Origin: Patescibacteria group bacterium
Lineage (GTDB): Bacteria; Patescibacteriota; Patescibacteriia; JACRDY01
DNA: 64,000 nucleotides
Assembly (NCBI GenBank): GCA_041671565.1
Contig: JBAZBH010000004.1
Location: 9,308-73,307 of the forward strand
Direction of reading: 5' to 3'
Every line of letters starts with the position of its first letter. Position 1 is the stretch's first letter. The translations under genes were made by a program, and so were the position numbers. Below are positions 29,601 through 63,733 of this stretch, in pieces. The notes under the pieces were generated by a model that did no database searches, was not told the DNA's origin, and saw only the letters and a program-made list of their open reading frames with translations.

Positions 29601-30233
29601 CTATTTTTTTCCGTCCCATTCTGATAAAAATTCATTTAAAAAGTTTTTCATAAAGATTACCCTCCGTTTGGCTATATATTTTGCAGTCTTTGTATACATT
29701 TTTGAGTCAAGTAGTAATAGTTTCTCATAAAAATGATTAACCATCGTTTTACTCCCACCAATAAAAGTCGGGTTGGGCCTAATGTCGGGATCATGAATTG
29801 GCCTATTTTTGCTGACGCAGTATTGAACCGTTCGAATTACGCCAATAGCTCCAACTGCGTCCATGGCATCACAATCAGCAATTATTTTTGCTTCTATAGT
29901 TTTAGGTTCTCCAATTTCGTCAGACCAAGAATGGGTTAATATGCAATCGGCAATGGGGTCAAGTATTTTAGGTGTAAGTTTAAATTGTTTGAGAAATGTT
30001 TTTGCAACCGAAGCACAAGATTTGGTATGGGTAAATGCTGGACCGTGCTCGCCAATGTCATGCAATAAAGCGGCAAGTTGCACTATAAACACATTAGCCT
30101 TTTCCTTTTTAGCTATCTTTTCTGCTATTTTAAACACTCTTATAACATGCCAATAATCATGACCCGAATTATCACTAAGTAACTTTTTTTTAATAAAGCT
30201 TTTAGTTTTTTGAAGAATTTCTTTTTTATTCAT
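29601..30233 (-). CDS. HD-domain phosphohydrolase
   Basis: H...HD motif (YWHVIRV ... LLHDIGE). Confidence 0.7.
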   Translation of the reverse strand: MNKKEILQKTKSFIKKKLLSDNSGHDYWHVIRVFKIAEKIAKKEKANVFIVQLAALLHDIGEHGPAFTHTKSCASVAKTFLKQFKLTPKILDPIADCILTHSWSDEIGEPKTIEAKIIADCDAMDAVGAIGVIRTVQYCVSKNRPIHDPDIRPNPTFIGGSKTMVNHFYEKLLLLDSKMYTKTAKYIAKRRVIFMKNFLNEFLSEWDGKK

Positions 30234-31107: not shown

Positions 31108-33792
31108 ATGGGCCAAACTGATGTTTTTAACCAATTTGACCAAACCCAAAAGTTGGGTGATTTCGGTCAGACCGCCGCGGCGGGCGGGCAGTCTTTGTTA
31201 AGCCAGCCAGTGGTGGCCGGGGTTTTGTATTTTATTTTGTTTATCGCGATCGTGGTTGCTGGTTTGGCGCTTTTGCGGTTTTTGTTAATTGCTTTGCGGC
31301 GCCGGTTGGCGACTTTTAACCGGGTGGTGTTGCAAGTTCTCCTGCCCAAAGAGTCGGAGGAACAGGCGGAGAAAGAAGAAGCGATCCAGAAAAAAGACAT
31401 TAAAGAAGTGATCGCCGAGGTAGAGGGGCTCTACGCCGCCTTGATCGGCACGGCGCGGCCGCATAATTGGGGTTATTGGTGGTACGCTTTTCGGCGGTTT
31501 TGGACCGGCCACCACAGCCATTTGTCCTTGGAAATGGTGGCTTGGCAGGATAAAATCAAGTTTTATCTGGTCACGCCGAAGCACTTGGCGGAATATGTGG
31601 AGAAGCAAATTCACGCCGCTTACCCGGACGCCACGGTGGAAAAAACGAGTGACTATAATATCTTTACGCCTCACGGCGCGGTGGCCGGCAGTTACCTTTG
31701 TCCCAGCCGCAGCCAGATTTTGCCGCTCCGGACTTATAAAAAAATGGACTTTGATCCGCTGGAGTCAGTCACCAGCAATCTGTCCAAGTTTGAGGCGGAG
31801 GACGGCGTGGCGATTCAACTTCTGGTCCGGCCCGGCAAAAGCAAATGGCGCAGCCAGGGGATTGGCATTGCCAAAAAAATGCACCAAGGTGAGACGCTGG
31901 AAAACGCCTTGCGGGGACAAAGCGGTTGGTTGAATTTTATCGGTTGGAGTTTTGGCTTACCTTATAAAGGGTTGAAATTTTTGGTGGACAACTTTTTCGT
32001 CACCGCGCCGAAACCGGGCGCGGAAAAGCCGGCCGGGGAAATGAGCGAAGGCGATAAAATGCGCCACGCGCCGGTCCGGATACTGAAACGGGAAGAAGAG
32101 CTGATTCAGGCGCTGGAAGAAAAATACGCCAAACCCTGTTTTGAAGCCAATCTGCGGCTGGTGGTTTCGGCTAAAACCCCGGAACGGACGACAATACTCC
32201 TCCGCAGTGTTATTGGTTCGTTTTCGCAGTTCAGCTCCACTTCCATTAATAATCAGCTCAAAGGGCCGCTCCTTTGGTTCAAGAGCATGTTTATCAATGA
32301 TTTTATCTGCCGCAACTTCCGGGAGTTTAAAAAATTTATCATTTCCAGCGAAGAATTGGTTAGTTTGTATCATTTCCCGCTGTCTTTCAATGAAACGCCA
32401 AATATCGTTTGGCTGCCTTCCCGCCGCGCCGCGCCGCCAGTGGATTTGCCCACCGAAGGCATTATCTTGGGCAAGAGTGTTTATCGCGGGCAAGAGAAAT
32501 TGGTGCGGCTGCAAAAGGACGACCGCCGGCGCCACACTTATATCATCGGTAAATCCGGCACCGGTAAATCGTTTCTCCTCGCCAATATGGCAATCCAGGA
32601 CATCCAGGCCGGCGAGGGTGTTTGTATTATCGATCCGCACGGCGATTTGGTGGACGATGTTTTTGAGCGGGTGCCGAAAGAGCGCGCCGACGATGTGATT
32701 TTATTTGACCCGGCGGACATTGAGCGGCCGATGGGTTTAAACTTATTAGAATACGATCCGCGCTACCCGGAGCAGAAAACTTTTGTGATCAACGAAATGA
32801 TCAAGATTTTTGACAAGCTTTATGACCTTAAACAAACCGGCGGGCCGATGTTTGAGCAATACATGCGGAACGCCATGCTTTTGGTCATGGAAGACCCGGA
32901 GAGCGGTTCCACTCTAATGGAGATTTCCAAGGTTTTGGTTGATCCGGATTACCGCCGTTACAAAATCAGTAAATGCCAGACGCAAGTAGTCAAGGACTTT
33001 TGGGTGAAAGAAGCGGAAAAAGCCGGCGGCGAGGCGGCCCTTGCCAACATGGTGCCTTACATTACTTCCAAATTAACCTCTTTTATTTCCAATGATTTCA
33101 TGCGGCCGATTATCGGCCAACAGCACAGCGCCATCAACTTCCGCGATGCCATGGACAGCGGCAAAATCCTGCTGGTTAAACTGTCTAAAGGGCGCCTGGG
33201 CGACATTAACACCAATTTAGTCGGCATGATGATGGTCGGCAAGATCCTGATGGCCGCCCTTAGCCGGACGGATATGCCGAAAGAAAAGCGCCGAGATTTT
33301 TACCTGTATATCGACGAGTTCCAAAACTTTACGACCGACAGCATTGCGGTGATTTTGTCCGAGGCGCGGAAATACATGCTTAACTTGATTATTGCCCACC
33401 AGTATATTGGCCAATTGGTGAAGCATGACGACACCACCATCAAGGACGCGGTCTTTGGCAATGTCGGCACGATGATTGCTTTCAAAATCGGCGCCGAAGA
33501 CGCCGAGCATATCGCCAAGGAGTTCGCCCCGATTGTTAACCAGTTTGACTTGATCAATGTCGAGCGCTTCAACGCCTACATCAAACTCTTGATCAACAAC
33601 CAAGCCTCGCGGCCGTTTAACCTCCAGACTCTGATTTTGCCGCCGGGCAACCCGGAATTATCCCAAAAAATCAAAGAACTCTCGCGCCTCAAATACGGCC
33701 ACGACCGGGCAAGCGTGGAGCGGGAGATTATTGAACGGAGCCGCTCGGCCGAGTTTTCTTTGGGTAAAGTTGACAAAGAGGCGAAAATCTAG
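31108..33792 (+). CDS. Membrane-anchored FtsK/HerA-superfamily ATPase, VirB4/TraC- or DUF87-like (T4SS-type)
   Basis: N-terminal TM (VVAGVLYFILFIAIVVAGLALL); Walker A IIGKSGTGKS followed by IIDPHGDL; Walker B LYIDEFQNF; about 450 aa N-domain before the P-loop, as in VirB4. Confidence 0.6.
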   Translation: MGQTDVFNQFDQTQKLGDFGQTAAAGGQSLLSQPVVAGVLYFILFIAIVVAGLALLRFLLIALRRRLATFNRVVLQVLLPKESEEQAEKEEAIQKKDIKEVIAEVEGLYAALIGTARPHNWGYWWYAFRRFWTGHHSHLSLEMVAWQDKIKFYLVTPKHLAEYVEKQIHAAYPDATVEKTSDYNIFTPHGAVAGSYLCPSRSQILPLRTYKKMDFDPLESVTSNLSKFEAEDGVAIQLLVRPGKSKWRSQGIGIAKKMHQGETLENALRGQSGWLNFIGWSFGLPYKGLKFLVDNFFVTAPKPGAEKPAGEMSEGDKMRHAPVRILKREEELIQALEEKYAKPCFEANLRLVVSAKTPERTTILLRSVIGSFSQFSSTSINNQLKGPLLWFKSMFINDFICRNFREFKKFIISSEELVSLYHFPLSFNETPNIVWLPSRRAAPPVDLPTEGIILGKSVYRGQEKLVRLQKDDRRRHTYIIGKSGTGKSFLLANMAIQDIQAGEGVCIIDPHGDLVDDVFERVPKERADDVILFDPADIERPMGLNLLEYDPRYPEQKTFVINEMIKIFDKLYDLKQTGGPMFEQYMRNAMLLVMEDPESGSTLMEISKVLVDPDYRRYKISKCQTQVVKDFWVKEAEKAGGEAALANMVPYITSKLTSFISNDFMRPIIGQQHSAINFRDAMDSGKILLVKLSKGRLGDINTNLVGMMMVGKILMAALSRTDMPKEKRRDFYLYIDEFQNFTTDSIAVILSEARKYMLNLIIAHQYIGQLVKHDDTTIKDAVFGNVGTMIAFKIGAEDAEHIAKEFAPIVNQFDLINVERFNAYIKLLINNQASRPFNLQTLILPPGNPELSQKIKELSRLKYGHDRASVEREIIERSRSAEFSLGKVDKEAKI

Positions 33793-37806: not shown

Positions 37807-37878
37807 TCTGGGATAGTTCAGTGGTAGAACGCCTGGCTGTTAACCAGGATGTCGCAGGTTCGAATCCTGCTCCCAGAG
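37807..37878 (+). tRNA. tRNA-Asn (GTT)
   Basis: Cloverleaf: acceptor tctggga/tcccaga (U1-A72 as in E. coli tRNA-Asn); D stem gttc/gaac; anticodon loop ctGTTaa; T arm gcagg-ttcgaat-cctgc; CCA not encoded. Confidence 0.85.
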
Positions 37879-37880
37879 CA

Positions 37881-37920
37881 TAGCGCAGGCAGGCGGGCGT
37901 TCGATTCCTCCCCCCAGAGC
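37881..37920 (+). pseudogene. Degenerate 3'-half copy of tRNA-Asn
   Basis: gcgggcgttcgattcctccccccagagc mirrors the genuine gcaggttcgaatcctgctcccagagc; acceptor complementarity to the upstream 5' pseudo-half (gctctgggg/ccccagagc). Confidence 0.5.
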
Positions 37921-37967
37921 TTAATAGATAATACTTGGCCGCTTAATCTTTACTCTAAATTAAGATA

Positions 37968-40184
37968 ATGGTAATATATAGGTATATGCCATGGAAACTT
38001 CCGATCCCATCAAAAATAAAAAGGATTGAGACAAAGGATAAAAAAGAAGCGGCTAGTTTTAAAAAAGCCGGTTTTTCTCAAAAAAGAATGAAAAGCGGCA
38101 AGTTTGTTTTAGAAAGAAAACTCCCAAAATGGGAATACTTTCAAGAAAAAGTTCGTGTATTTTTAGATGTTCTTGGATTTCAGGATATTGAATGTGGACA
38201 ATCGGCTCGATTGGGGAGATATCAGATTGATGTTTTTGGTGGGTACGAAGGGACCTTTTTGGTTTTTGAATGCAAAAGTGTTAACGAACCAAAGCGAAAA
38301 ACGATTAGACAGATTATAAATGATTTTGCCGGAAAAAAAGCAGAAATAGAGCAAGCAATAAGAGAAAGATTTGGTTCTAAATACAATGAAGTTAAATTTA
38401 TTTTAGCTCTCGAAGAAATAGACATTTTAGAAGAAGATGAAAAAACTGCTCGTGAAAATGATATTTATATATGGGGTAGTAGTTATTTAAAAACTGGTGA
38501 AGATCTCTTTTCACTTATTGGTCCGTTGGCTTTACATTATGTTTTAAAAGAATTAGGTGTTAGTTCAAAACCCATTAAAGATGAGGAAGGAGGGGCTGAT
38601 TATAAAGTTCCAAGTTTTCGTATAACGGTGGGAGATCAACAATTATATAGTTTTTTTCTTCCTGCCGAAAAATTGTTAAATTTAGTGTATGTTTTTCGTC
38701 TTCAGCCGGGGAATGAAGATGCCTATCAAAGATTTATTTCAAAAAAACGTATTCTCGGAACAAAAGATGAAATTGGTATAACTGATTTTATAAACAACGG
38801 CGGATTTTTTAAAAACACCGTTGTTTGTAGTTTTGAAAGGCAAGTCCATTTTGAGGCAAAACCAACTGGTCTTTTATTGCAATCAACAAATATAGAATTT
38901 GGTATTTTGAGCATTCCAAAATTATATGGAACAGTTTGGGTTATTGATGGACAACATAGAATCTATGGTTATGCCGGTGCAAATCCTGAAACTAAAAAAT
39001 CACATATTGGGATAATGGCTTATCAAGATATTGAAAAAAAACGTCAAGCAAAAGATTTTATTGATATTAATCAAAAACAAAAATCAGTAGATCCTAATAC
39101 TCTTTGGGATTTACTTTCCCAAACAGATCCATATTCAATGCAGGGTGCGATAACAAAAATTGCTCGCGGATTGAATAAAAATGGAATTTTTAAAAATAAA
39201 ATTTTAATTCCAGGGAAAATGTTTCATGGTAAAAAATCATTATATCCATTAAAAATAGCCAATATTTGTAATAGTTTGTATGATCGCAGATTACTTGACT
39301 ATAAAGGCCGCGACAATTTATATAAAAGAACTTCAGATGTAGCGGATAGTAATTATTACCCGGATAGTGTTATAAACTACCCAGTAGATGTCCTTAATCA
39401 GTATTTTTCTTTACTTTGGGATATTGCAGACAAAACTCCAGAATGGAGAAAGGGGTTTATCATTCAAAATAATGGATTTAATATTTTTTTGCGCGTTCTC
39501 GCAGAAGTTTTGAAATTTCAAAAAGGCAATTGGGATAAACAGGTAGCAAAAGAATTAATGGATGAACCATTGAAATTATATTTTGAAGAGCAGTTTGAAA
39601 AAATAAAAGATATAAGGATCTCAACAAGTAATGAGGCGGGTAGAGCAAAGGTTGCTTTAGAAATTATAAAGCATATTAACCAGAAACAAGAGTCTTTTGC
39701 CCGTGAATTTATTGCGGAAACAGAAAAAAGAGAACGGTCGGCTTTTGAAAAATTAGAGCCTTATCAAACATTAAAAGAATTAGAAACAAGTTTAAGGGTT
39801 TTTATTGAGGAAAAATTAAAGCAATTAACACCAAATTGGTGGAAACAAAGAATCCCATCGGATGTTCAGGAAAAAGCTGAAGAAAACATGGCTAAAAACG
39901 AAAGTCCTTGGCCATGGGTACCAATAGAGGAAAAATCGCCGATCTTTTATATTAATTTTCCTGATTATGGGAAAATAATTCAAAGAAAAGATAACTGGAA
40001 TGATATTTTTTCAAAAATATTTAAAGATTCTAATATAATCTTTTCTTGGTTGAGGGAGTTGGAGGATATCCGCAATAAAATTGCCCATTTTCGTCCTATT
40101 TCCGTTGAAGAGTCTACCACCCTTAGACTTAATACAAGTAAAATTATAAAAACTATCAAACCAACAGAAGAGAAAGAGGAGTAG
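37968..40184 (+). CDS. Three-domain fusion: PD-(D/E)xK (Mrr_cat-like) nuclease + DGQHR (DndB-like ParB-fold) domain + C-terminal HEPN (Rx4H). Candidate defense protein on an AT-rich islet.
   Basis: N-term FLDVLGFQDIECGQSARLGRYQIDVFGGYEGTFLVFECKS (D..ExK); middle GTVWVIDGQHRIYGY; C-term WLRELEDIRNKIAHFRP (R-N-K-I-A-H). About 36% GC versus about 50% flanking. An alternative start at 37986 is possible. Confidence 0.75.
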   Translation: MVIYRYMPWKLPIPSKIKRIETKDKKEAASFKKAGFSQKRMKSGKFVLERKLPKWEYFQEKVRVFLDVLGFQDIECGQSARLGRYQIDVFGGYEGTFLVFECKSVNEPKRKTIRQIINDFAGKKAEIEQAIRERFGSKYNEVKFILALEEIDILEEDEKTARENDIYIWGSSYLKTGEDLFSLIGPLALHYVLKELGVSSKPIKDEEGGADYKVPSFRITVGDQQLYSFFLPAEKLLNLVYVFRLQPGNEDAYQRFISKKRILGTKDEIGITDFINNGGFFKNTVVCSFERQVHFEAKPTGLLLQSTNIEFGILSIPKLYGTVWVIDGQHRIYGYAGANPETKKSHIGIMAYQDIEKKRQAKDFIDINQKQKSVDPNTLWDLLSQTDPYSMQGAITKIARGLNKNGIFKNKILIPGKMFHGKKSLYPLKIANICNSLYDRRLLDYKGRDNLYKRTSDVADSNYYPDSVINYPVDVLNQYFSLLWDIADKTPEWRKGFIIQNNGFNIFLRVLAEVLKFQKGNWDKQVAKELMDEPLKLYFEEQFEKIKDIRISTSNEAGRAKVALEIIKHINQKQESFAREFIAETEKRERSAFEKLEPYQTLKELETSLRVFIEEKLKQLTPNWWKQRIPSDVQEKAEENMAKNESPWPWVPIEEKSPIFYINFPDYGKIIQRKDNWNDIFSKIFKDSNIIFSWLRELEDIRNKIAHFRPISVEESTTLRLNTSKIIKTIKPTEEKEE

Positions 40185-40525: not shown

Positions 40526-41641
40526 ATGACCGAAGGCAACGGGACAAACGGGCAAAACAACAATGGCGTTGGCGCGGCGGCGGATAAAAGGGCCGCGGCT
40601 TTGGTTTTGCCGCAAAAAGTGGCGATCATTTACAGCGAGGTCAAGCGGGAGTATTTTCCTACAGAAACCCAGTATTTGACCGAGAAAGACGCGCTTCGCG
40701 ACGCCCAGGCGGTGGCCGGCTATTTGGAAAAACTGGGCGTGACGCCAATGCTTTATCCCGGCGACGCTGACTTGGCGGAGAAAATCCGTCACGACCGGCC
40801 GGAAATGCTGATCAATATGGTCGGTTCGGTCAAAGGCAATGAGTATCTGGCTTCCGCCATTCCGGCGCTCGCCGAGCTCCTAGACATTCCTTATACTGGC
40901 GCCGGCATTTTGGGCGAGTCGCTCGCTTACAATAAATTTCTGGTTAAAAAACTTTTACAGCAAAACGGCGTGCCGGTACCCAACTACCAGCTGTTTAGTG
41001 ACCAAAATGATTTTCTCGACCCGACACTGCGGTTTCCGGTCATTTCCAAACTCAATGAAATTCATGGCGCCGTGGAAATTACCAAAGACGCCGTGTCCGA
41101 GAACGAAAAGCATTTGCGGGCGCGGCTCAGTTTCCTGATCAAAACCTACGAACAGCCGGTTTTGGTGGAGGAGTTTATCGCCGGCCGGGAAATTTCCGCC
41201 ATGCTTTTGGAAGGTTTGAACAAAAAGGTTTATCTTGCCGAAAAGGTTTTTAACAAGCCGGATGAAAAATACGCCTTTGCCACTTTTGAAGACCAGTGGT
41301 TGGAAGAGGCCTCAGGCAAAGCGCCATTCACTTACCAAAAGTTTCAGGACAATATTCTCAAAGAATATGTGAAAAAAGCCTTTGAAATCACCAAAATGGC
41401 TGACTATGGCAAGTTTGATGTCCGGCTGGATAACTCCGGCCGCTACTACTTTGTGGACTGCAACAGCAACCCGGCGTTTGGCCCGAAAGAAGTGGACTGC
41501 GCCATTGCCAATATCCTTGATCTTTACGGTGTCTCTTTTTTAGAAATTTTGCGGCGGCTCCTCCTTAACACCGCCCGCGACGCCAAGTCCAAGATTTCGC
41601 CCAGCCCGGATTCTGGCGATGACAGCAATAATGAAAAGTAA
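40526..41641 (+). CDS. ATP-grasp ligase, D-alanine--D-alanine ligase family (paralog 1)
   Basis: Ddl-like N-domain (KVAIIYSEV...LGVTPMLYP), central LAELLDIPYTGAG, ATP-grasp core KLLQQNGVPVP...PVISKLNEIHGA...VLVEEFIAGREIS, C-terminal VDCNSNPAFG. Confidence 0.7.
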   Translation: MTEGNGTNGQNNNGVGAAADKRAAALVLPQKVAIIYSEVKREYFPTETQYLTEKDALRDAQAVAGYLEKLGVTPMLYPGDADLAEKIRHDRPEMLINMVGSVKGNEYLASAIPALAELLDIPYTGAGILGESLAYNKFLVKKLLQQNGVPVPNYQLFSDQNDFLDPTLRFPVISKLNEIHGAVEITKDAVSENEKHLRARLSFLIKTYEQPVLVEEFIAGREISAMLLEGLNKKVYLAEKVFNKPDEKYAFATFEDQWLEEASGKAPFTYQKFQDNILKEYVKKAFEITKMADYGKFDVRLDNSGRYYFVDCNSNPAFGPKEVDCAIANILDLYGVSFLEILRRLLLNTARDAKSKISPSPDSGDDSNNEK

Positions 41642-41644
41642 TTT

Positions 41645-42676
41645 ATGAAGAAGCTTAACCTAGGCTTCATCTATAATGTCCGCCACACGGCGCCGGATTT
41701 AAACAATCCGCAGTATTTGCTGGAAGCGGAATTTGACACGCCGGAGACGATTGCCGGCATCACCGGGGCGTTGGAAAGTTTGGGCCACACGGTTTATCCG
41801 GTGGAGGCGGACGAAGACGCTTACCCTAAACTCAAAGAATTAAAAGGCAAAGTTGATTTGGTTTTTAATGTTGCTGAAGGCATTCGCGGCGCCGACCGTG
41901 AAGCGCAGTTGCCGGCGATGATGGAAATGCTCGGCTTGCCTTACACTGGGCCGCCGCCGATCGGCTACGCTTTAGGTTTAAACAAAGCCGTGGCCAAAGA
42001 AATCCTGGCTTATTACCACATTTTAACCCCGCGCTGGCGGACAGTTTCGCGTTTAGAAGAATTGGAACAAAAGCAGTTTGATTTTATGCCGGTGATTGCG
42101 AAGCCGCTGTCCGAAGGCTCGAGCAAGGGGATACAAGCTAAGAATTTAGTTCATAATTTAGCCGACTTAAAAACCATCACGGCGGAACTTTTGGCGGCCT
42201 ATCATCAGCCGGTGCTTTTGGAGGAATATCTGCCGGGCCGCGAGTTTACCGTTGGCGTGATTGGCACGCCACCAGAGGTCCTGCCGATCATCGAGGTGTC
42301 GTTTGACGCTTTACCCCCGGAGATGCCCAAATTTGACCATTTTGAGGCTAAATGGGTATATGACAATCCGGCCACGGAGGCTGATCCGCTGGTTTGCCCG
42401 GCCGTTCTTTCGCCGGAGCTGGAAGGGCAGATCAAGAACCTTTGCCTGCAGGCGTTTGATGTCCTGGAAATGGCGGACTGGGCGCGGTTTGATGTGCGGC
42501 TCGACAAGAATAATTTACCCCACATCTTGGAAGTTAACTGCCCGCCGGGGATTATCCCGGACCCGAAAGAAAATTCCCGCTTTCCGCGGGCGGCGCGGAC
42601 CGCTGGTTACAGTTTCCCGCAAATGTTAGAAAAAATATTGCTGTCGGCTTGCCACAAAACTCTCGCCCCACCTTAG
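41645..42676 (+). CDS. ATP-grasp ligase, D-alanine--D-alanine ligase family (paralog 2)
   Basis: FNVAEGIRGADREAQLPAMMEMLGLPYTGP (Ddl N-domain), PVIAKPLSEGSSKGI, VLLEEYLPGREFTVGVIG, LEVNCPPGI. Confidence 0.7.
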   Translation: MKKLNLGFIYNVRHTAPDLNNPQYLLEAEFDTPETIAGITGALESLGHTVYPVEADEDAYPKLKELKGKVDLVFNVAEGIRGADREAQLPAMMEMLGLPYTGPPPIGYALGLNKAVAKEILAYYHILTPRWRTVSRLEELEQKQFDFMPVIAKPLSEGSSKGIQAKNLVHNLADLKTITAELLAAYHQPVLLEEYLPGREFTVGVIGTPPEVLPIIEVSFDALPPEMPKFDHFEAKWVYDNPATEADPLVCPAVLSPELEGQIKNLCLQAFDVLEMADWARFDVRLDKNNLPHILEVNCPPGIIPDPKENSRFPRAARTAGYSFPQMLEKILLSACHKTLAPP

Positions 42677-42716
42677 AAAACTGGTTAAAACCTGCCCGGC
42701 CATCCGCCGGCAGTTT

Positions 42717-43574
42717 GTGCCGAGCGCGAAGGAGGGGAAAGACGAAGTCCTGACTTCGACTGACCCGCTGATGGAAGAGCACTTTACCGTCACCCGCGGC
42801 CTGGTCCACAAATATGGCAATCGCGCTTTGGTTCTTCTGACTATGAATTGCGCCGCTTACTGCCGGTTTTGCACGCGCCGCCGGTCAGTGTCGGATATTC
42901 AAAAGGGGATGATTACGCCCGCCGACATCAAGAAAATGGTTAGTTATGTCAGAAAGCACCGGGAAATCACCGAGCTGATTTTTTCCGGCGGTGATCCGCT
43001 GACCGTGCCGGCGATTTTAAAAATGGCTTTACGGCAGTTTGCTAGTTTGCCGCAGATTAAAGTCATCCGGGTGGGTTCGCGCCTGCCGGTGTCGAACCCC
43101 GCGGCCGTTAATCGCCAAGTGATTTCGGCGCTTCAGGAAGTTAAAAAGCAACCATTATATCTCATGCTCCACTTTGAACATCCGGCGGAAATCACGCCGG
43201 CAACGGTTGCGGCGGTTAAACGGCTGCAGTCAGTTGCCACCATGACGCTGTCGCAGTCGGTTTCGCTGAAAGGTGTTAATGACTCAGTTAAAACGCTTTA
43301 CGAGCTTTTCAGCCGGCTGGTGGAAATCGGGGTCAAGCCTTATTACCTTTACCGTTGTGACCCAGTCAAAGGAGCCGAGCATTTTATTGTGGATTTTAAA
43401 AAAGAAGTCCGAATTTTTACCGAACTTCGTAAACGCCTCAGCGGTCTCGCCACGCCCCTGTATGTCATTGACGCGCCCGACGGCGCCGGCAAAATTCCCG
43501 TGCCGCTCGATTTCTGGCAGTTTGACGCTACTGGTTACCGAGATTTCCGGGGGAAGAAGTTGAAAGTGATTTAG
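42717..43574 (+). CDS. KamA-family radical SAM protein (lysine 2,3-aminomutase / EpmB-like), short form
   Basis: CAAYCRFCTRRR (Cx3Cx2C cluster in the KamA-specific CRxCxRR context); SGGDPL; only 285 aa. Confidence 0.7.
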   Translation: MPSAKEGKDEVLTSTDPLMEEHFTVTRGLVHKYGNRALVLLTMNCAAYCRFCTRRRSVSDIQKGMITPADIKKMVSYVRKHREITELIFSGGDPLTVPAILKMALRQFASLPQIKVIRVGSRLPVSNPAAVNRQVISALQEVKKQPLYLMLHFEHPAEITPATVAAVKRLQSVATMTLSQSVSLKGVNDSVKTLYELFSRLVEIGVKPYYLYRCDPVKGAEHFIVDFKKEVRIFTELRKRLSGLATPLYVIDAPDGAGKIPVPLDFWQFDATGYRDFRGKKLKVI

Positions 43575-43612
43575 ATAGCCGATAGCACATAGCTCATAGC
43601 CGATAGTTGGAC
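43575..43612. repeat. GATAGCCGATAGC-word repeat
   Basis: gatagccgatagcacatagctcatagccgatag. Confidence 0.45.
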
Positions 43613-43643
43613 GAGTTGTAAGTTCTTCTTTTTATAATAAAAT

Positions 43644-44984
43644 ATGGAAGGGATACTCGTTATAATAGGGATAGCTATAATTTGGGGAATAATTTCTTGG
43701 TTTATTGAAATTTTTTCTAATTCAAAAAGATACTTAGAATTAAAGCCAAAACTAGATAATTTAGAAAAAGCAACGAAGGAGCAAGAATTAAAAATTTTAA
43801 ACAATGCGGCAAAATTAGAGGCAGAGTCACAGAAAAGATTAGATGAATTTTCGCAAAAAGTTAAGAAAACAAGCGACGAATTTGAGCTAAAAGAAAAATT
43901 ATGGAATGAACAGATGCAGAGGGAGATAGGTGAAATTCAAAAAATAGCTAAACAAAAATCAATGGGATTTCCTTGGTTAGCCGAAGCATATGCAGATTAT
44001 TTCACATTAGAAGATTATAAATTAGAAAAATATCTAAAAGATAAAAAACATCCAGCATATACTGCCGCAGAAAATGTAAGGATTATTAAAAATGAAAAGA
44101 GGGAATTATTGAAGGAAAATAAAATAGTCAGATATAAAATTAATTATTTTGAAAAATTATTTCCATGGCTCTCCGAATTAATTGCTGAAGACGAAGACGA
44201 ATATATTCCAGTTAGAATTGATAATATAGATGATGACAATAATGAAGATAGGGTTAAAGATTTTCTTACACCAGAAGAATACAAAAATCTTCCCTCTGTC
44301 GAAAGAAATCAAATAGCCCTAGATAGATATTTGAAAAATAGAAATAAGTCAAAATGGGCGATTGGCAGAGATTATGAAATGTATGTTGGGTATTTATATG
44401 AACAAGCCGGGTATTCTATCGAATACAAAGGAATTCTCGATGGTTTTGAAGATCTGGGTAGAGATATTATTGCTAAAAAGGGTGGTGAAGTTTGTATTAT
44501 CCAATGTAAACACTGGGCACAATATAAGGAGATACATGAAAAACATATTTTTCAACTCTTTGGAACAACGATGGAATATTGGATAAATAATTATCAAGCT
44601 GTGAGGAGCCAATTAAATTTATTCTCTCAAAATTTGAATAGTAATAATGCACCTAAAAGTTTTGAAGAATTTGCAAAATTTTTAAATGAAAATAAACTTC
44701 GGCCAATATTTTTTACATCAACAAAACTATCTAATAAAGCCAAGGAAATGGCAAATGCCTTGAGCGTTGAAATTAGAGAAAACGAATCACCTGGCGAATT
44801 TCCAAGAATCAAATGTAATATAAATAGCGACGAGTTTAGTTATCCAACAAAAATTTATCACCTGCCAATGGATCAGCAATATGATCGGACTATAATAGGT
44901 AATCGTTCAGGAGAGTTTTATGCTTTTACGGTTAAACAGGCAGAAGATGCTGGATTTAGGCGAGCTTTTAAGCACAGATTTTAG
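43644..44984 (+). CDS. Membrane-anchored coiled-coil protein with Mrr_cat-like (PD-(D/E)xK) restriction-endonuclease domain; AT-rich islet
   Basis: N-terminal TM; about 120 aa K/E-rich coiled coil; GRDYEMYVGYLYEQAGYSIEYKGILDGFEDLGRDIIAKKGGEVCIIQCKHW (Mrr_cat pattern). About 31% GC. Confidence 0.6.
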   Translation: MEGILVIIGIAIIWGIISWFIEIFSNSKRYLELKPKLDNLEKATKEQELKILNNAAKLEAESQKRLDEFSQKVKKTSDEFELKEKLWNEQMQREIGEIQKIAKQKSMGFPWLAEAYADYFTLEDYKLEKYLKDKKHPAYTAAENVRIIKNEKRELLKENKIVRYKINYFEKLFPWLSELIAEDEDEYIPVRIDNIDDDNNEDRVKDFLTPEEYKNLPSVERNQIALDRYLKNRNKSKWAIGRDYEMYVGYLYEQAGYSIEYKGILDGFEDLGRDIIAKKGGEVCIIQCKHWAQYKEIHEKHIFQLFGTTMEYWINNYQAVRSQLNLFSQNLNSNNAPKSFEEFAKFLNENKLRPIFFTSTKLSNKAKEMANALSVEIRENESPGEFPRIKCNINSDEFSYPTKIYHLPMDQQYDRTIIGNRSGEFYAFTVKQAEDAGFRRAFKHRF

Positions 44985-45061
44985 GTGATTCTTACTGCTC
45001 GTCATTCAAAAAATAAAATTAATATTATATATAAAAAAACACTTACCTTAGTTTTTTATAA

Positions 45062-45093
45062 AAAGGCTAAAGCCCGCGAAATGATTCGCGGGC
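45062..45093. terminator. Bidirectional intrinsic terminator
   Basis: aaaaaggctaaagcccgcgaaatgattcgcgggcttttt. Confidence 0.6.
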
Positions 45094-45108
45094 TTTTTGT
45101 GACGGTTG

Positions 45109-45312
45109 TCAGGAGGGCAGGCCGATATTGCCGGACAGCGCTTGGGCGATGATGCCCAGCAGTTTGACCAGCACTTCTTCCAGGCCGACGAAAATGCTCG
45201 GCAGGAAGAGTTTGATCACGACGATGGCCAGGGCCAGCGACAGCGCGCTTCTCATAGATTTTAGTCTATGAATTAGTCCAGCGAGGTTGAACCATTCAGC
45301 CGGGCTGACCAC
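45109..45312 (-). CDS. Possible small membrane protein (67 aa)
   Basis: Hydrophobic ORF on the opposite strand immediately after the bidirectional terminator; no family signal. Confidence 0.25.
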   Translation of the reverse strand: MVSPAEWFNLAGLIHRLKSMRSALSLALAIVVIKLFLPSIFVGLEEVLVKLLGIIAQALSGNIGLPS

Positions 45313-46115: not shown

Positions 46116-46748
46116 ATGGCTAATTGGGATAAAATTTATCGTGATTATAAAAAAGGAGGCGAGGCATGGGCAACTCTCAGTGAAGATATTCATCCGCTGT
46201 TTAAAAGCTTAATCAAGAAAACAAATTTTAAGTTTAAACAGGTTTTGGATATTGGCTGTGGTACCGGAAAATACGCCCTTTTCTTGACTGGCAAGGGATT
46301 TGCGGTTGATGGCATTGATTCTAGCGCTACCGCTATCCAAATGACTAAAGATTTACTTGGCAAGAAAGCCGGCCTAATAAAAAAGGCCAATATGTTTAAA
46401 TCGCGTATCGCTAAAGGCAAGTATGATTTGATAATTTCCGTGGCCACCATACATCACGGCGTTAAAAAAGATATTCAAAGTTTGATTGATAAAATATTTT
46501 TTTCTTTGGTGGCGGGTGGTAAGGCGTTTATTACTCTGCCAGACTTCGAAAGTTCAAAGAAATGGAATACCTTTAAAGATCATCAGGATTTGGGCGGCGG
46601 TACCTTCACTCCATTGTCCGGCCCGGAAAAAGGTTTGCCTCATAGTTTTTACACTAAGGTGGAAGTTCAAAAATTATTTACCCAATTTAGTAAGGTCAAA
46701 ATAAGCTTGGATAATATTGGTCGTTGGGTGGCTCAAGCGTCTAAGTAA
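46116..46748 (+). CDS. Class I SAM-dependent methyltransferase
   Basis: VLDIGCGTGKYALFL (motif I), GFAVDGIDSS (motif II). Confidence 0.75.
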   Translation: MANWDKIYRDYKKGGEAWATLSEDIHPLFKSLIKKTNFKFKQVLDIGCGTGKYALFLTGKGFAVDGIDSSATAIQMTKDLLGKKAGLIKKANMFKSRIAKGKYDLIISVATIHHGVKKDIQSLIDKIFFSLVAGGKAFITLPDFESSKKWNTFKDHQDLGGGTFTPLSGPEKGLPHSFYTKVEVQKLFTQFSKVKISLDNIGRWVAQASK

Positions 46749-62051: not shown

Positions 62052-62570
62052 ATGAAAATTATTGTTGGTCTCGGCAATCCCGGCAAAGAATACGCCAAAA
62101 CCCGCCATAATCTAGGCTGGTTGGTTTTGGATAAGCTGGCCGGCAAAAATAAATGGCAAGAGAATAAAAAAGCCAAAGCTTTATTTTTGGCCGCCGAAAT
62201 TGACGGGCAAGAAGCGCTACTGGTTAAACCGACGACTTTTATGAATAACTCCGGCCTGGCGGTTAGGGCGATGATAAAGAAATACAATTTAAAACCAAGC
62301 GACTTGATTGTGGTTCATGATGATAAAGACTTGGACTTCGGCCGGATCAAAGTGACCGGGGACTCTGGCTCCGCCGGGCATAACGGCGTTAAATCGTTAA
62401 TTGATGTTTTGGGCACACAAAAATTTATTCGCGTTCGAGTGGGAGTGAAAAATGAGTTATTAGAAAAAATGCCGACGGATAAGTTTGTTTTGGGGCGATT
62501 TAATAAGGAAGAAATCAAACAACTCGACAATATTCTTAAAGAAATAATTGCCAAAATATGCCAGAATTAG
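62052..62570 (+). CDS. pth: Peptidyl-tRNA hydrolase
   Basis: MKIIVGLGNPGKEYAKTRHNLGW, catalytic His region, VHDDKD. Confidence 0.9.
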   Translation: MKIIVGLGNPGKEYAKTRHNLGWLVLDKLAGKNKWQENKKAKALFLAAEIDGQEALLVKPTTFMNNSGLAVRAMIKKYNLKPSDLIVVHDDKDLDFGRIKVTGDSGSAGHNGVKSLIDVLGTQKFIRVRVGVKNELLEKMPTDKFVLGRFNKEEIKQLDNILKEIIAKICQN

Positions 62571-63733
62571 CAGGGGAATATCCGATAAAAGGGGATGAGG
62601 CCTTTTCCGCAGAAGCTAAGGAAAGCCAAATTGAGCCGGAAGGCATTGAATTTTCTATAGTAAAAGATTATAAAATACCGGGCAAGGAAGAAAGAGGCCA
62701 GCATGAGTTATTGGCTGAAGCTATGGGCCAATTAATCCATAAGATTAAAGAGGGCCATTATGCCAGCGTGGTATTTTTAGACAAAGCCGCTCGGCCGCTA
62801 GTTACAATGTTGCAGGATATGTGGCCGTATAATTTTGATGCCAATGGTAAATTGGTTGGCTTAGAAGAAGATGGGTCTCACTTACCAACCATAAATTTTT
62901 TAAATGTGGGTACGGAAACGGAAGAAGTTTTTACAAATTATTTTACCGGTAAAAAGAAGAAAAATTCTTTGATATCTGGGGCAGAAAAGCAATTGCAGAC
63001 GGCTACGGCGGCGAAAGATAATTTAGAAGAAACAATTTTGGCCGGTCCATATTCTAGGGCAATTGGTTATTTCCGATATCAAAACAGTTGGCTTGGTTAT
63101 CTTGAAGGTAAAAGTGAAGAAGAAAAAAAAGAAATAGAAAATATAGTAGAGATATTCTCAAAGGCTAAAGATGAAGTTGGGCATTGGAAAGATCTAGAGT
63201 CTCGGGTAAGAAATGAAGGATATTTTATTCCTCAATTTGTTGAAGATAATGATTACGCTAGATTAATGTCGTTGATTACCAATGATATGACTATTGAGGC
63301 TGTTGGCAAAGAAAAACTACAGAAGTTGGTAAAAGAGTATGCTTTGTTTAAAAATAGTGGGCCAGTATTAATTGTTGATGAATATTCTAATACCGGCCAA
63401 TCTTTGGAACTGGCAAAAAAAGTTATAGAAGCCGGCATGGCTTTAAAAGACAAAAATAATTTAATTGACGGATATAATTTTTCCGACGAGCGGCGAAGCT
63501 ATCTTTTTACAAAAGAAGATGGTTTTCGCGTTAATCCGCCTTGGCGAGAAAGCTCGTCTCAGTCGGAAATGAGAGGTGTCACTGGCGTAGTGGATCCGGC
63601 CGAAGGCGAATTGACCGCCGAAAAATATGGCCGAGAAAATCCAGAAGCCGCCAAGCGCGTACAACAACTGAGGGCTGAATTGCATGCCATCGCCAATAAA
63701 TATTTGGAAAAAGAAAAAGAAAGGTTGACATAA
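62558..63733 (+). CDS. Hypothetical protein with C-terminal phosphoribosyltransferase-like motif
   Basis: VLIVDEYSNTGQSL matches the type I PRTase PRPP-binding loop; the rest is unassigned. Confidence 0.4.
   Translation: MPELAGEYPIKGDEAFSAEAKESQIEPEGIEFSIVKDYKIPGKEERGQHELLAEAMGQLIHKIKEGHYASVVFLDKAARPLVTMLQDMWPYNFDANGKLVGLEEDGSHLPTINFLNVGTETEEVFTNYFTGKKKKNSLISGAEKQLQTATAAKDNLEETILAGPYSRAIGYFRYQNSWLGYLEGKSEEEKKEIENIVEIFSKAKDEVGHWKDLESRVRNEGYFIPQFVEDNDYARLMSLITNDMTIEAVGKEKLQKLVKEYALFKNSGPVLIVDEYSNTGQSLELAKKVIEAGMALKDKNNLIDGYNFSDERRSYLFTKEDGFRVNPPWRESSSQSEMRGVTGVVDPAEGELTAEKYGRENPEAAKRVQQLRAELHAIANKYLEKEKERLT

What the first reader, a model, noticed from the sequence alone, without database searches (positions are those of the whole stretch)
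43644..44984. Second AT-rich islet: membrane-anchored coiled-coil protein with Mrr-like nuclease domain
This gene is about 31% GC. It has an N-terminal TM helix, a roughly 120-residue K/E-rich coiled coil, and then GFEDLGRDIIAKKGGEVCIIQCKHW. That sequence fits the Mrr_cat restriction-endonuclease core (D..D-x10-E-x-Q-C-K). A membrane-tethered PD-(D/E)xK nuclease is unusual. It lies 3.4 kb from the DGQHR-HEPN gene, bracketing a normal-GC cluster, so the region is a mosaic accessory stretch. It could be a second defense-related nuclease or an abortive-infection-type effector.
Basis: partly seen in the sequence, partly recalled or inferred. Interest (0 to 1): 0.6.

Follow-up and report, generated by a model that had tools for sequence, protein, structure and literature searches.

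The report
Mobile membrane-anchored Mrr-type nuclease gene
This AT-rich gene is a horizontally acquired, stand-alone DNA-cutting enzyme predicted to be tethered to the inner face of the cell membrane; in other bacteria it travels as an integron gene cassette, and it most likely defends against invading DNA, though its function has never been tested.

Summary
ORF 43644-44984 (446 aa) has 30.9% GC and GC3 0.23, against 0.54±0.08 for 40 other window genes (z = -4.0).

The family is large (>2,500 hits) and 57-85% identical across at least 8 phyla. It is under strong purifying selection (dN/dS 0.04-0.10). It is always solitary, with no methylase or other recurrent partner, and almost always lower in GC than its host.

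DNA similarity stops at the ORF ends. The exception is short cassette ends in about 13 of 32 loci. In several non-Patescibacteria phyla these are canonical integron boundaries (G|TTAGC plus an attC), once beside an integron integrase. Patescibacteria copies carry a different bounded unit. The window copy has lost its ends and sits downstream of a conserved operon that lacks it in relatives.

Topology prediction puts the nuclease in the cytoplasm, as in the validated membrane-bound defence nucleases SNIPE and Epona. It lacks their defining domains, so it is at most an analogue.

Verdict: a real, foreign, probably defensive nuclease and a new variant of a known kind. Function is inferred, not shown.

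The parts
43575..43643 (+). 69-nt spacer between the kamA-like stop codon and the ATG. It contains an 11-nt direct repeat ATAGCCGATAG x2 (43575-43585 and 43596-43606). It also holds a possible degenerate copy of the Patescibacteria cassette boundary site (43606-43632), and the only flank still shared with relatives (TTATAATAAAAT, 43631-43642). No terminator or Shine-Dalgarno sequence is present, so the gene is probably co-transcribed with the upstream operon (inference).
43644..44984 (+). Complete ORF, 446 aa: a membrane-anchored Mrr-family nuclease (identical to P0001, NCBI 'MAG: restriction endonuclease [Patescibacteria group bacterium]').
43650..43715 (+). Single N-terminal TM helix (residues 3-24). 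The N-terminal tail is only 2 residues and acidic. Positive charges lie on the C-terminal side (SNSKRYLELKPK), so the predicted topology is N-out/C-in.
   Evidence: conserved W19, S27, Y30, L33-K34-P35, D38
43716..43952 (+). Juxtamembrane motif plus K/E-rich alpha-helical stalk (residues 25-103). Its length varies between homologues (22-residue indel; duplicated in P0006 and P0010). It is the fastest-evolving part of the protein.
43953..44183 (+). Conserved helical 'FPWL' module (QKSMGFPWLAEAYADYF ... YKINYFEKLFPWLSELIA, residues 104-180). It is a helical hairpin with no Pfam or PDB match, and its function is unknown.
44184..44258 (+). Acidic, low-confidence linker (residues 181-205).
   Evidence: pLDDT below 50
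44259..44783 (+). Nuclease domain (residues 206-380): a conserved helical lead-in (LTPEEY...RNQ.ALDRY) and the Mrr_cat alpha-beta-beta-beta-alpha core. E245, D270, D274 and Q287-C288-K289 are invariant in 136 sequences.
44802..44966 (+). C-terminal 'sunset' domain (residues 387-441: IKCNIN...KIYHLP.DQQY...AGFRRAF), a small beta-beta-beta-alpha unit with a basic C-terminal tail. K390, C391, Y405, H406, D410, Q411, Y413 and R439 are invariant. It is presumed to bind nucleic acid (inference).
44985..45068 (+). AT-rich 84-nt tail of the inserted segment. It shares only TAG-GTG with relatives' tails and does not fold better than shuffled sequence, so the cassette 3' recombination site is absent or decayed.
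45069..45096 (.). GC-rich 12-bp hairpin (AAAGCCCGCGAA/TTCGCGGGCTTT) with T-runs on both sides. It is the host terminator of the convergent small ORF (45109..45312, minus strand) and the likely stop for the nuclease transcript. It marks the right-hand limit of the insertion.

Best explanation
The gene encodes a stand-alone, horizontally acquired Mrr-family (PD-(D/E)XK) DNA endonuclease. It is anchored in the cytoplasmic membrane by one N-terminal helix, with the whole catalytic part facing the cytoplasm on a long helical stalk.

Shown: the domain identity, the invariant catalytic residues, the compositional foreignness, the absence from the syntenic site in relatives, the lack of any methylase or other conserved partner, strong purifying selection, and cassette-type mobility of the same gene in other genomes.

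Predicted from sequence, not demonstrated: the N-out/C-in topology (positive-inside rule).

Inferred: it acts as a single-gene defence against invading DNA. The most likely mechanism is that tethering keeps the nuclease away from the chromosome, so it cuts DNA only where foreign DNA enters or contacts the membrane. This is the spatial self/non-self logic demonstrated for SNIPE. In this reading the Mrr_cat-sunset pair is the DNA-binding and cutting unit, and the stalk and FPWL module set its reach or keep it auto-inhibited.

The window copy is probably a former cassette that has lost its recombination ends. It now appears to be read through from the upstream grasp-grasp-kamA operon.
For: Nuclease identity:
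- Mrr_cat scores 33 bits against a gathering score of 21; a PHROG 'restriction endonuclease' family also matches.
- E245, D274, Q287 and K289 are invariant in 136 sequences spanning about 36-89% identity.
- The AF2 model has mean pLDDT 86. Its core matches AF1548, the MspJI catalytic domain, Cdn1, EndoMS and Hjc.

Topology:
- K+R count is 4.2 on the C-terminal flank against 0.06 on the N-terminal flank.
- N-out/C-in is predicted for all 118 close members with a TM and for 87% of distant ones.
- The TM is kept in 118 of 120 close and 82 of 120 distant members.

Foreign origin:
- GC3 z = -4.0.
- The gene is absent downstream of kamA in the 17 related metagenome loci.

Stand-alone status:
- No neighbour family recurs in more than 3 of about 38 loci.
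- Only 1 methyltransferase appears among 123 nearest neighbours.
- No DNA methylase is found among the ORFs of 150 aa or more scanned between about 31 and 54 kb of the window.

Mobility:
- DNA identity of 73-77% across phyla is confined to the ORF.
- Integron boundaries G|TTAGC plus an attC with R''/L''/L'/R' boxes occur in loci from at least 4 phyla.
- The Scalindua locus has intI, an attI-like site and a cassette array.
- A distinct bounded unit occurs in Patescibacteria.

Defence link:
- Integron cassettes are enriched 2.2-fold for defence systems and include the validated Mrr_cat+TM system Epona.
- In SNIPE, removing the TM is toxic and the membrane-bound enzyme cuts phage DNA during injection.
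- SoFic (4), DpdF (2), a HigB-like toxin and integrases occur among neighbours.
- A DGQHR-HEPN gene lies 3.4 kb away.

Selection: dN/dS is 0.04-0.10.
Against: - No experiment exists on any family member.
- PADLOC gives no hit for the protein.
- Most neighbours are housekeeping genes, so defence-island association is modest.
- Conservation is far higher than usual for defence genes. It extends to the TM and juxtamembrane region, which in SNIPE is hypervariable. That argues against an arms-race sensor, or for a different role.
- The family is absent from the phage GenBank set and nearly absent from plasmids.
- Topology rests on the positive-inside rule only.
- The window copy shows no recognisable recombination site or integrase.
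Confidence: 0.5

Rival explanations
1. It is a type IV (modification-dependent) restriction enzyme. The Mrr_cat domain cuts only DNA carrying foreign modifications, and the sunset or FPWL domain reads the modification. The membrane anchor is secondary. This is not mutually exclusive with the best explanation.
For: Mrr_cat is the catalytic domain of Mrr. The best structural matches include the modification-dependent enzymes MspJI and AspBHI. There is no cognate methylase in 34 loci or in the window.
Against: No Mrr_N, SRA or other known modified-base reader domain was detected. The structural matches cover only the catalytic core. The TM anchor is strongly conserved, which a purely soluble logic does not explain.
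Confidence: 0.2
2. It is an abortive-infection or toxin-type effector. The nuclease is held inactive at the membrane and is released or activated by infection-induced membrane perturbation. It then degrades host and phage DNA and kills the cell.
For: A low-confidence acidic linker (residues 181-205) could be a cleavage or release point. SNIPE without its TM is toxic through chromosome cleavage. Integron cassettes often carry toxin-like and Abi-like systems. HigB-like toxin and SoFic genes occur among neighbours.
Against: No sensor, protease or antitoxin partner is conserved. No direct evidence of toxicity exists. The family persists as a single gene in tiny Patescibacteria genomes.
Confidence: 0.12
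3. It has a housekeeping or nutritional role: a nuclease that processes incoming or scavenged DNA for nucleotide supply, for example coupled to DNA uptake in Patescibacteria.
For: The family is most frequent in Patescibacteria. One paper notes a suggestion that restriction enzymes could help epibionts source nucleotides from exogenous DNA.
Against: The predicted topology is cytoplasmic. Distribution is patchy, and the gene is absent from close syntenic relatives. It occurs in integron cassettes of free-living Proteobacteria, Planctomycetota and Bacillota. No linkage to com or pil genes was seen.
Confidence: 0.05
4. It is a selfish nuclease that promotes its own spread or retention (homing-like or addictive) rather than benefiting the host.
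For: It is a solitary ORF-sized unit found in unrelated intergenic sites across phyla, with DNA similarity ending at the ORF.
Against: The cassette ends and integrases explain its mobility without self-encoded cleavage. A membrane tether is hard to reconcile with sequence-specific homing. No conserved target sequence flanks the insertions.
Confidence: 0.05

Closest known systems
SNIPE (E. coli membrane-bound anti-phage nuclease; Saxton et al., Nature 2026, PMC13190303)
   Same: Single gene. N-terminus outside, one TM helix, and an elongated cytoplasmic region ending in a nuclease. There is no methylase, and TM-less variants exist in the wider family. Membrane sequestration offers a plausible way to spare the chromosome.
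   Different: SNIPE uses DUF4041 plus a GIY-YIG nuclease, and neither was detected here. This protein has Mrr_cat plus a sunset domain plus an FPWL module. SNIPE N-termini are hypervariable, whereas here the TM and juxtamembrane region are among the conserved parts. It is an analogue, not a homologue.
Epona (V. cholerae superintegron cassette; Darracq et al., bioRxiv 10.1101/2024.07.02.601686)
   Same: An Mrr_cat nuclease fused to a membrane-spanning N-terminal region. It is a single-gene integron cassette and an experimentally anti-phage system.
   Different: Epona is described as having a holin-like domain with 2 TM helices and as almost restricted to V. cholerae. This protein has 1 TM, a long stalk and a sunset domain, and spans at least 8 phyla.
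E. coli Mrr and MspJI-type type IV restriction enzymes
   Same: The catalytic fold and the D...(Q/E)xK motif match, and there is no cognate methylase.
   Different: There is no Mrr_N or SRA-like reader domain. The membrane anchor and sunset domain are absent from those enzymes.
Integron gene cassettes (attC-bounded, IntI-mobilised)
   Same: In relatives from Pseudomonadota, Planctomycetota, Bacillota and Desulfobacterota the gene is bounded by G|TTAGC and a ~70-nt attC. One copy lies in an intI-attI-cassette array. Solo copies resemble insertion outside integrons.
   Different: The window copy has no attC, no GTTRRRY boundary and no integrase. Patescibacteria copies use a different 27-nt boundary site and hairpin.

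Membership tests
Mrr_cat (PF04471) / PD-(D/E)XK nuclease superfamily | Profile HMM score above the curated gathering threshold | tested here: met
   33 bits against a cutoff of 21, E = 7e-8, residues 242-311. PHROG restriction endonuclease E = 2.8e-5.
Mrr_cat (PF04471) / PD-(D/E)XK nuclease superfamily | Catalytic E ... D ... (E/Q)xK residues present and conserved | tested here: met
   E245, D274 and Q287-C-K289 are invariant in 136 sequences.
Mrr_cat (PF04471) / PD-(D/E)XK nuclease superfamily | Alpha-beta-beta-beta-alpha-beta core fold | tested here: met
   AF2 mean pLDDT 86. Foldseek matches to 1y88, MspJI 4f0p, EndoMS and Hjc.
Mrr_cat (PF04471) / PD-(D/E)XK nuclease superfamily | Mg-dependent DNA cleavage | not testable with these tools
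   Needs biochemistry.
Type IV restriction enzyme (E. coli Mrr type) | N-terminal Mrr_N (winged-helix) or other modified-DNA reader domain | tested here: not met
   No such Pfam or NCBIfam hit at E <= 1.
Type IV restriction enzyme (E. coli Mrr type) | No cognate methyltransferase | tested here: met
   1 MTase among 123 nearest neighbours of 34 loci. No DNA methylase was found among the window ORFs of 150 aa or more scanned between ~31 and 54 kb.
Type IV restriction enzyme (E. coli Mrr type) | Cleavage dependent on DNA modification | not testable with these tools
   Needs in vitro or in vivo assays.
SNIPE | Single-pass N-terminal TM, N-terminus out and nuclease in the cytoplasm | tested here: met
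   Positive-inside analysis. This is a prediction only.
SNIPE | DUF4041 domain | tested here: not met
   No Pfam or PADLOC hit.
SNIPE | GIY-YIG nuclease domain | tested here: not met
   The nuclease is Mrr_cat, not GIY-YIG.
SNIPE | Cleaves phage DNA during injection | not testable with these tools
   Needs experiment.
Epona (superintegron Mrr_cat system) | Mrr_cat catalytic domain | tested here: met
Epona (superintegron Mrr_cat system) | Holin-like domain with two TM helices | tested here: not met
   One hydrophobic segment only. No holin family hit.
Epona (superintegron Mrr_cat system) | Sequence homology to Epona | not tested
   The sequence is not in the held text or supplement.
Integron gene cassette | G|TTRRRY 5' boundary and a 3' attC with R''/L''/L'/R' boxes | tested here: not met
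   Not met in the window: the tail does not fold (z = 0.02) and has no cassette-end similarity. Met in relatives L001, L002, L007, L012, L021 (and L025, L032, L037).
Integron gene cassette | Integron integrase and attI adjacent to the array | tested here: not met
   The window has no integrase. Met in relative L012: best hit TIGR02249, 219.6 bits, truncated by the contig end, with an attI-like GTTAGCC.
Sunset domain (NCBIfam NF051437) | HMM score at or above the curated cutoff | tested here: inconclusive
   26.1 bits against a cutoff of 27 for the window protein. All 20 aligned relatives match at E <= 0.01, best 2e-7.
Classical type II restriction-modification system | Adjacent cognate DNA methyltransferase | tested here: not met

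The most novel reading that the evidence does not exclude
This is a previously unrecognised, pan-bacterial family of entry-site defence nucleases that uses membrane tethering instead of methylation to tell self from foreign DNA. Its unusually conserved TM and juxtamembrane motif docks onto a universally conserved membrane feature. It spreads between phyla as an integron cassette and, in Patescibacteria, through an undescribed integron-like or invertible cassette system. That system uses a 27-nt site (GTTATAYGAAAYACAYGTTTTCCTTTT) and a XerA/IntI-like recombinase that lacks the IntI-specific insertion.
Probability: 0.2. Interest if true: 0.75.

Novelty: new variant of a known kind. Interest (0 to 1): 0.5.

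Why it matters
If the inferred role is right, the spatial self/non-self principle recently shown for SNIPE extends to a second, unrelated nuclease superfamily. It would also extend to very small-genome Patescibacteria, which mostly lack CRISPR. The family would be a compact (~1.3 kb), methylase-free, broadly transferable defence module and an easy candidate for functional screens. The cassette evidence documents the same gene moving across at least 4 phyla through integrons. It also points to a possible distinct cassette system in Patescibacteria. Finally, the family gives the uncharacterised 'sunset' domain a consistent partner (Mrr_cat), which makes its function testable.

Tried and rejected
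- **PADLOC on the protein:** no meaningful hit.
- **PDB searches:** the sequence search found nothing. The profile search gave only weak AF1548 and coiled-coil-type hits.
- **GenBank phages:** no match. PLSDB plasmids gave only four Hymenobacter plasmids at 41% identity.
- **Exact-sequence contig lookup of P0001:** not on record.
- **First AF2 run on 20 close homologues:** too shallow (pLDDT 58). It was redone with 136 diverse sequences.
- **Literature on 'sunset domain':** none found.
- **Searching the sunset region alone against 1.8 billion representatives:** mostly returned the same family, so little was learned about other partners.
- **Empty-site search using the kamA-like neighbour:** found only 58-79% identical relatives. 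This shows absence of the gene there, but gives no exact empty site.
- **Multi-gene system idea:** rejected, because no neighbour recurs.
- **Recent transfer idea:** rejected, because dS is saturated.
- **PWM search for remnants of the Patescibacteria boundary site:** the two flanking hits rank 8th and 12th in the window, but AT-richness confounds this, so it is not counted as evidence.
- **blastn-short of cassette ends against the window:** only noise.
- **Epona sequence:** not retrievable.
Full report
**1.

An ATG-initiated ORF runs from 43644 to 44984 on the + strand and encodes 446 aa.
- GC is 0.309, against 0.50 and 0.46 in the flanks.
- GC3 is 0.228. The mean for 40 other ORFs of at least 150 aa in the window is 0.540, sd 0.078, so z = -4.0.
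- The DGQHR-HEPN gene at 37968-40184 shows the same anomaly (GC3 0.222). It starts 89 nt after a tRNA-Asn.
- The three genes between the two islets are two ATP-grasp genes and a KamA-like radical-SAM gene. They have normal GC. The same three-gene order recurs in 8 of 17 related metagenome loci, none of which carries the nuclease gene.

**2. Anatomy of the protein**

- **Residues 3-24** form the only strongly hydrophobic segment.
- **Residues 25-105** are a K/E-rich helix, continuous with the TM helix in the first AF2 model. Its heptad signal is weak and its length varies between homologues. It is best called a helical stalk that may form a coiled coil.
- **Residues ~104-180** are a highly conserved helical hairpin with two FPWL motifs. 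It has no Pfam, PDB-sequence or Foldseek match.
- **Residues 181-205** are an acidic, disordered linker.
- **Residues ~241-380** are the Mrr_cat domain (Pfam 33 bits against a gathering score of 21).
- **Residues 387-441** match NCBIfam's 'sunset' domain. The score is 26.1 bits against a cutoff of 27, and all 20 aligned relatives match.

With a 136-sequence alignment the AF2 model of residues 95-446 reaches mean pLDDT 86. Its core aligns to the following:
- AF1548 (Mrr-like);
- the catalytic domain of the modification-dependent enzyme MspJI;
- Cdn1, EndoMS/NucS and Hjc.

Phage 'restriction endonucleases' match in BFVD. E245, D270, D274, Q287, C288 and K289 are invariant across sequences that are about 36-89% identical to the query, as are eight sunset residues. 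The protein should therefore be an active nuclease.

**3. Topology**

The N-terminal tail is 2-4 residues long and acidic or neutral. The 15 residues after the TM carry on average 4.2 K+R, against 0.06 before it. The positive-inside rule gives N-out/C-in for all 118 close homologues with a TM and for 87% of the distant ones. All soluble domains are therefore predicted to be cytoplasmic. This is a prediction, not a measurement.

**4. Family and evolution**

- **Size.** More than 2,500 proteins match among the 8,000 candidates scored.
- **Distribution.** The species-representative genome scan found the family in many Patescibacteria classes, and in Omnitrophota, Planctomycetota, Desulfobacterota, Elusimicrobiota, Verrucomicrobiota, Bacillota and Pseudomonadota, at 57-85% identity. 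*Spartinivicinus ruber* is the one cultured-organism genome among the hits examined.
- **Wider family.** A superfamily at 30-45% identity keeps the same plan. 113 of 120 members keep the sunset YHxP motif and 82 of 120 keep the N-terminal TM. Some members add SWIM fingers.
- **Core unit.** Mrr_cat plus sunset is the invariant core; TM-less proteins of 197-299 aa keep both.
- **Selection.** dN is 0.10-0.16 while dS is saturated, so dN/dS is 0.04-0.10. The stalk evolves fastest.

Two inferences follow. The gene is functional, and the copies are anciently diverged rather than recent transfers of one another. The 73-77% DNA identity across phyla reflects protein conservation plus AT-biased codons. 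Gene GC is below host GC in nearly all 45 loci. The window copy is far from host composition, which points to a comparatively recent arrival from a low-GC donor.

**5. It is a single-gene unit**

- Neighbours differ from genome to genome: ilvB/arfB, PNPase, Sua5, and a P2-like prophage edge.
- No neighbour family recurs in more than 3 of about 38 loci.
- Among 123 nearest ORFs there is one methyltransferase. There is a sprinkling of SoFic (4), PDC-S04, DpdF (2) and integrases, but the neighbours are mainly housekeeping genes.
- The ORFs of 150 aa or more between ~31 and 54 kb in the window include no DNA methylase. The nearby methyltransferase at 46116-46748 is of the small-molecule type.

**6. 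How the gene moves**

Aligning the flanks of all homologues revealed sharp cassette boundaries.

*Group A* comprises L001 *Spartinivicinus*, L002 Planctomycetota, L007 Pseudomonadota, L012 *Scalindua* and L021, plus L025 Desulfotomaculaceae, L032 and L037.
- The upstream sequences are unrelated until an invariant GTTA(GC). A conserved 32-nt leader then runs to the ATG.
- Downstream similarity in L001, L007 and L021 runs from the stop codon through GCTAAC-aaa-TCACTG ... CCAGTGA-gttcaaac-GTT and then stops. L002 shares only the first ~43 nt, up to the GCTAAC motif.
- The L001 copy of that 70-nt element folds with AAC/GTT and L-box pairing plus bulges, as attC sites do.
- In L012 the gene is the second cassette after a divergent integrase whose best match is TIGR02249 'integron integrase', and after an attI-like GTTAGCC. 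Cassette 1 has its own attC.

These are integron cassettes. Copies without a nearby integrase fit the documented insertion of cassettes outside integron att sites.

*Group B* comprises the Patescibacteria loci L005, L015, L016, L018 and L020, which include the window's closest relatives.
- It has a 135-145-nt leader beginning at GTTATA(Y)G.
- It has a ~65-nt hairpin tail with compensatory changes between copies (dG -12.8 and -15.5 kcal/mol, z about -3.1).
- In L005 the 1.6-kb unit is bracketed by ~75-nt inverted repeats. It lies next to a XerA/IntI-like recombinase that lacks the IntI-specific insertion.
- In L016 the unit is bracketed by 33-nt direct repeats that overlap the 3' end of tRNA-Leu.

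I could not decide whether Group B is an integron-like cassette, an invertible segment or a MITE-like element.

*Group C* (L023, L026, L028) shares at least 400 nt upstream, including a 137-aa ORF of unknown family.

*The window copy.*
- It keeps only 12 nt before the ATG and TAG-GTG after the stop in common with Group B.
- Its 84-nt AT-rich tail does not fold.
- No integrase is present in the 64 kb.
- The insertion is bounded by the kamA-like stop codon (43574) and by the GC-rich terminator of a convergent host ORF (45069-45096).
- No terminator separates it from the upstream operon. It is probably read through from that operon, as promoterless cassettes are (inference).

**7. Function**

Nothing in this family has been tested, so the function is inferred. 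Two experimentally characterised systems have the same logic.
- **SNIPE** is a single-pass, N-out membrane protein with a cytoplasmic DUF4041 and a GIY-YIG nuclease. It cuts phage DNA during injection. Removing its TM makes it attack the chromosome.
- **Epona** is a *V. cholerae* superintegron cassette that fuses Mrr_cat to a two-TM holin-like domain and is anti-phage.

The window protein has neither DUF4041/GIY-YIG nor a two-TM holin domain. It belongs to neither family but plausibly works like them. The supporting points are its methylase-free solitary state, its cassette mobility, the reported 2.2-fold enrichment of defence systems in integron cassettes, and its position 3.4 kb from a DGQHR-HEPN gene.

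Against a classical arms-race defence gene stands its extreme conservation, which includes the membrane-proximal part. Modification-dependent (type IV) cutting, abortive-infection release, a nutritional role and a selfish role remain as rivals, with the weights given in the rivals section.

**8. Verdict**

The finding is real and the nuclease assignment is correct. The gene is foreign and, in other genomes, demonstrably cassette-borne. It is not rare, and NCBI already names it generically 'restriction endonuclease'. What is new:
- the defined architecture (TM, stalk, FPWL module, Mrr_cat, sunset);
- the predicted cytoplasm-facing tether;
- the cross-phylum cassette mobility;
- the analogy to SNIPE and Epona.

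I rate it a new variant of a known kind, of moderate interest.

Noticed in passing
window 37807-40184: The first AT-rich islet is a 738-aa protein with DGQHR (TIGR03187, 96.9 bits), DndB-like and Swt1-like HEPN domains. It also has a weak Hjc-like N-terminal hit and PADLOC PDC-M34B matches. It starts 89 nt after tRNA-Asn(GTT), and its GC3 is 0.222 (z = -4.1). It looks like a separate tRNA-adjacent insertion.
   Followed up: partly
window 29601-30233 (-), 62558-63733 (+), 46116-46748 (+): These are further low-GC3 genes: an HD-domain protein (GC3 0.284, z = -3.3), a 391-aa ORF with a faint major-capsid-like hit (GC3 0.334), and a small-molecule SAM methyltransferase (GC3 0.384). The window therefore holds more than two compositional islets.
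   Followed up: partly
window 6549-19082: A giant ORF of 4,177 aa with normal GC.
   Followed up: no
window 31108-33792: An 894-aa protein with TrwB/VirD4-type coupling-protein and HerA-like ATPase hits.
   Followed up: no
window 40526-43574: Two ATP-grasp (D-Ala-D-Ala-ligase-like) genes plus a KamA-like radical-SAM gene form an operon whose order is conserved in 8 related metagenome loci (52-76% identity). It may be a beta-lysine or peptide-ligation pathway.
   Followed up: partly
window 43575-43606: The 11-nt direct repeat ATAGCCGATAG occurs twice, 21 nt apart, in the spacer just upstream of the nuclease gene. Its meaning is unknown.
   Followed up: no
L005 7868-9480; L016 5588-7260: In Patescibacteria the gene travels in a ~1.6-kb unit bounded by a 27-nt site (GTTATAYGAAAYACAYGTTTTCCTTTT). 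The site is inverted in L005, next to a XerA/IntI-like recombinase lacking the IntI insertion. It is direct in L016, where 33-nt repeats overlap the tRNA-Leu 3' end. This could be an undescribed cassette or inversion system.
   Followed up: partly
L012 1-4200 (Candidatus Scalindua contig JANLHC010000114.1): A complete-looking integron: intI truncated by the contig end, an attI-like GTTAGCC, and at least four same-strand cassettes, of which the nuclease is the second.
   Followed up: partly
P0006, P0010 (homologues of 607 and 592 aa): These carry an internal tandem duplication of the juxtamembrane motif, stalk and FPWL module. The FPWL module itself looks like an internal ~64-aa repeat.
   Followed up: no
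L023, L026, L028 (Saccharibacteria and Harrisonbacteria loci): A conserved 137-aa ORF with no Pfam hit lies directly upstream of the nuclease gene, within at least 400 nt of shared flank. It may be a lineage-specific partner or may simply reflect shared synteny.
   Followed up: partly
L001 1-9242 (Spartinivicinus ruber CP048878) and L046 (IMG/VR): This Group A cassette copy sits at the edge of a P2-like tail gene cluster and is included in an IMG/VR viral contig. It could be prophage cargo or could lie just outside the prophage.
   Followed up: no
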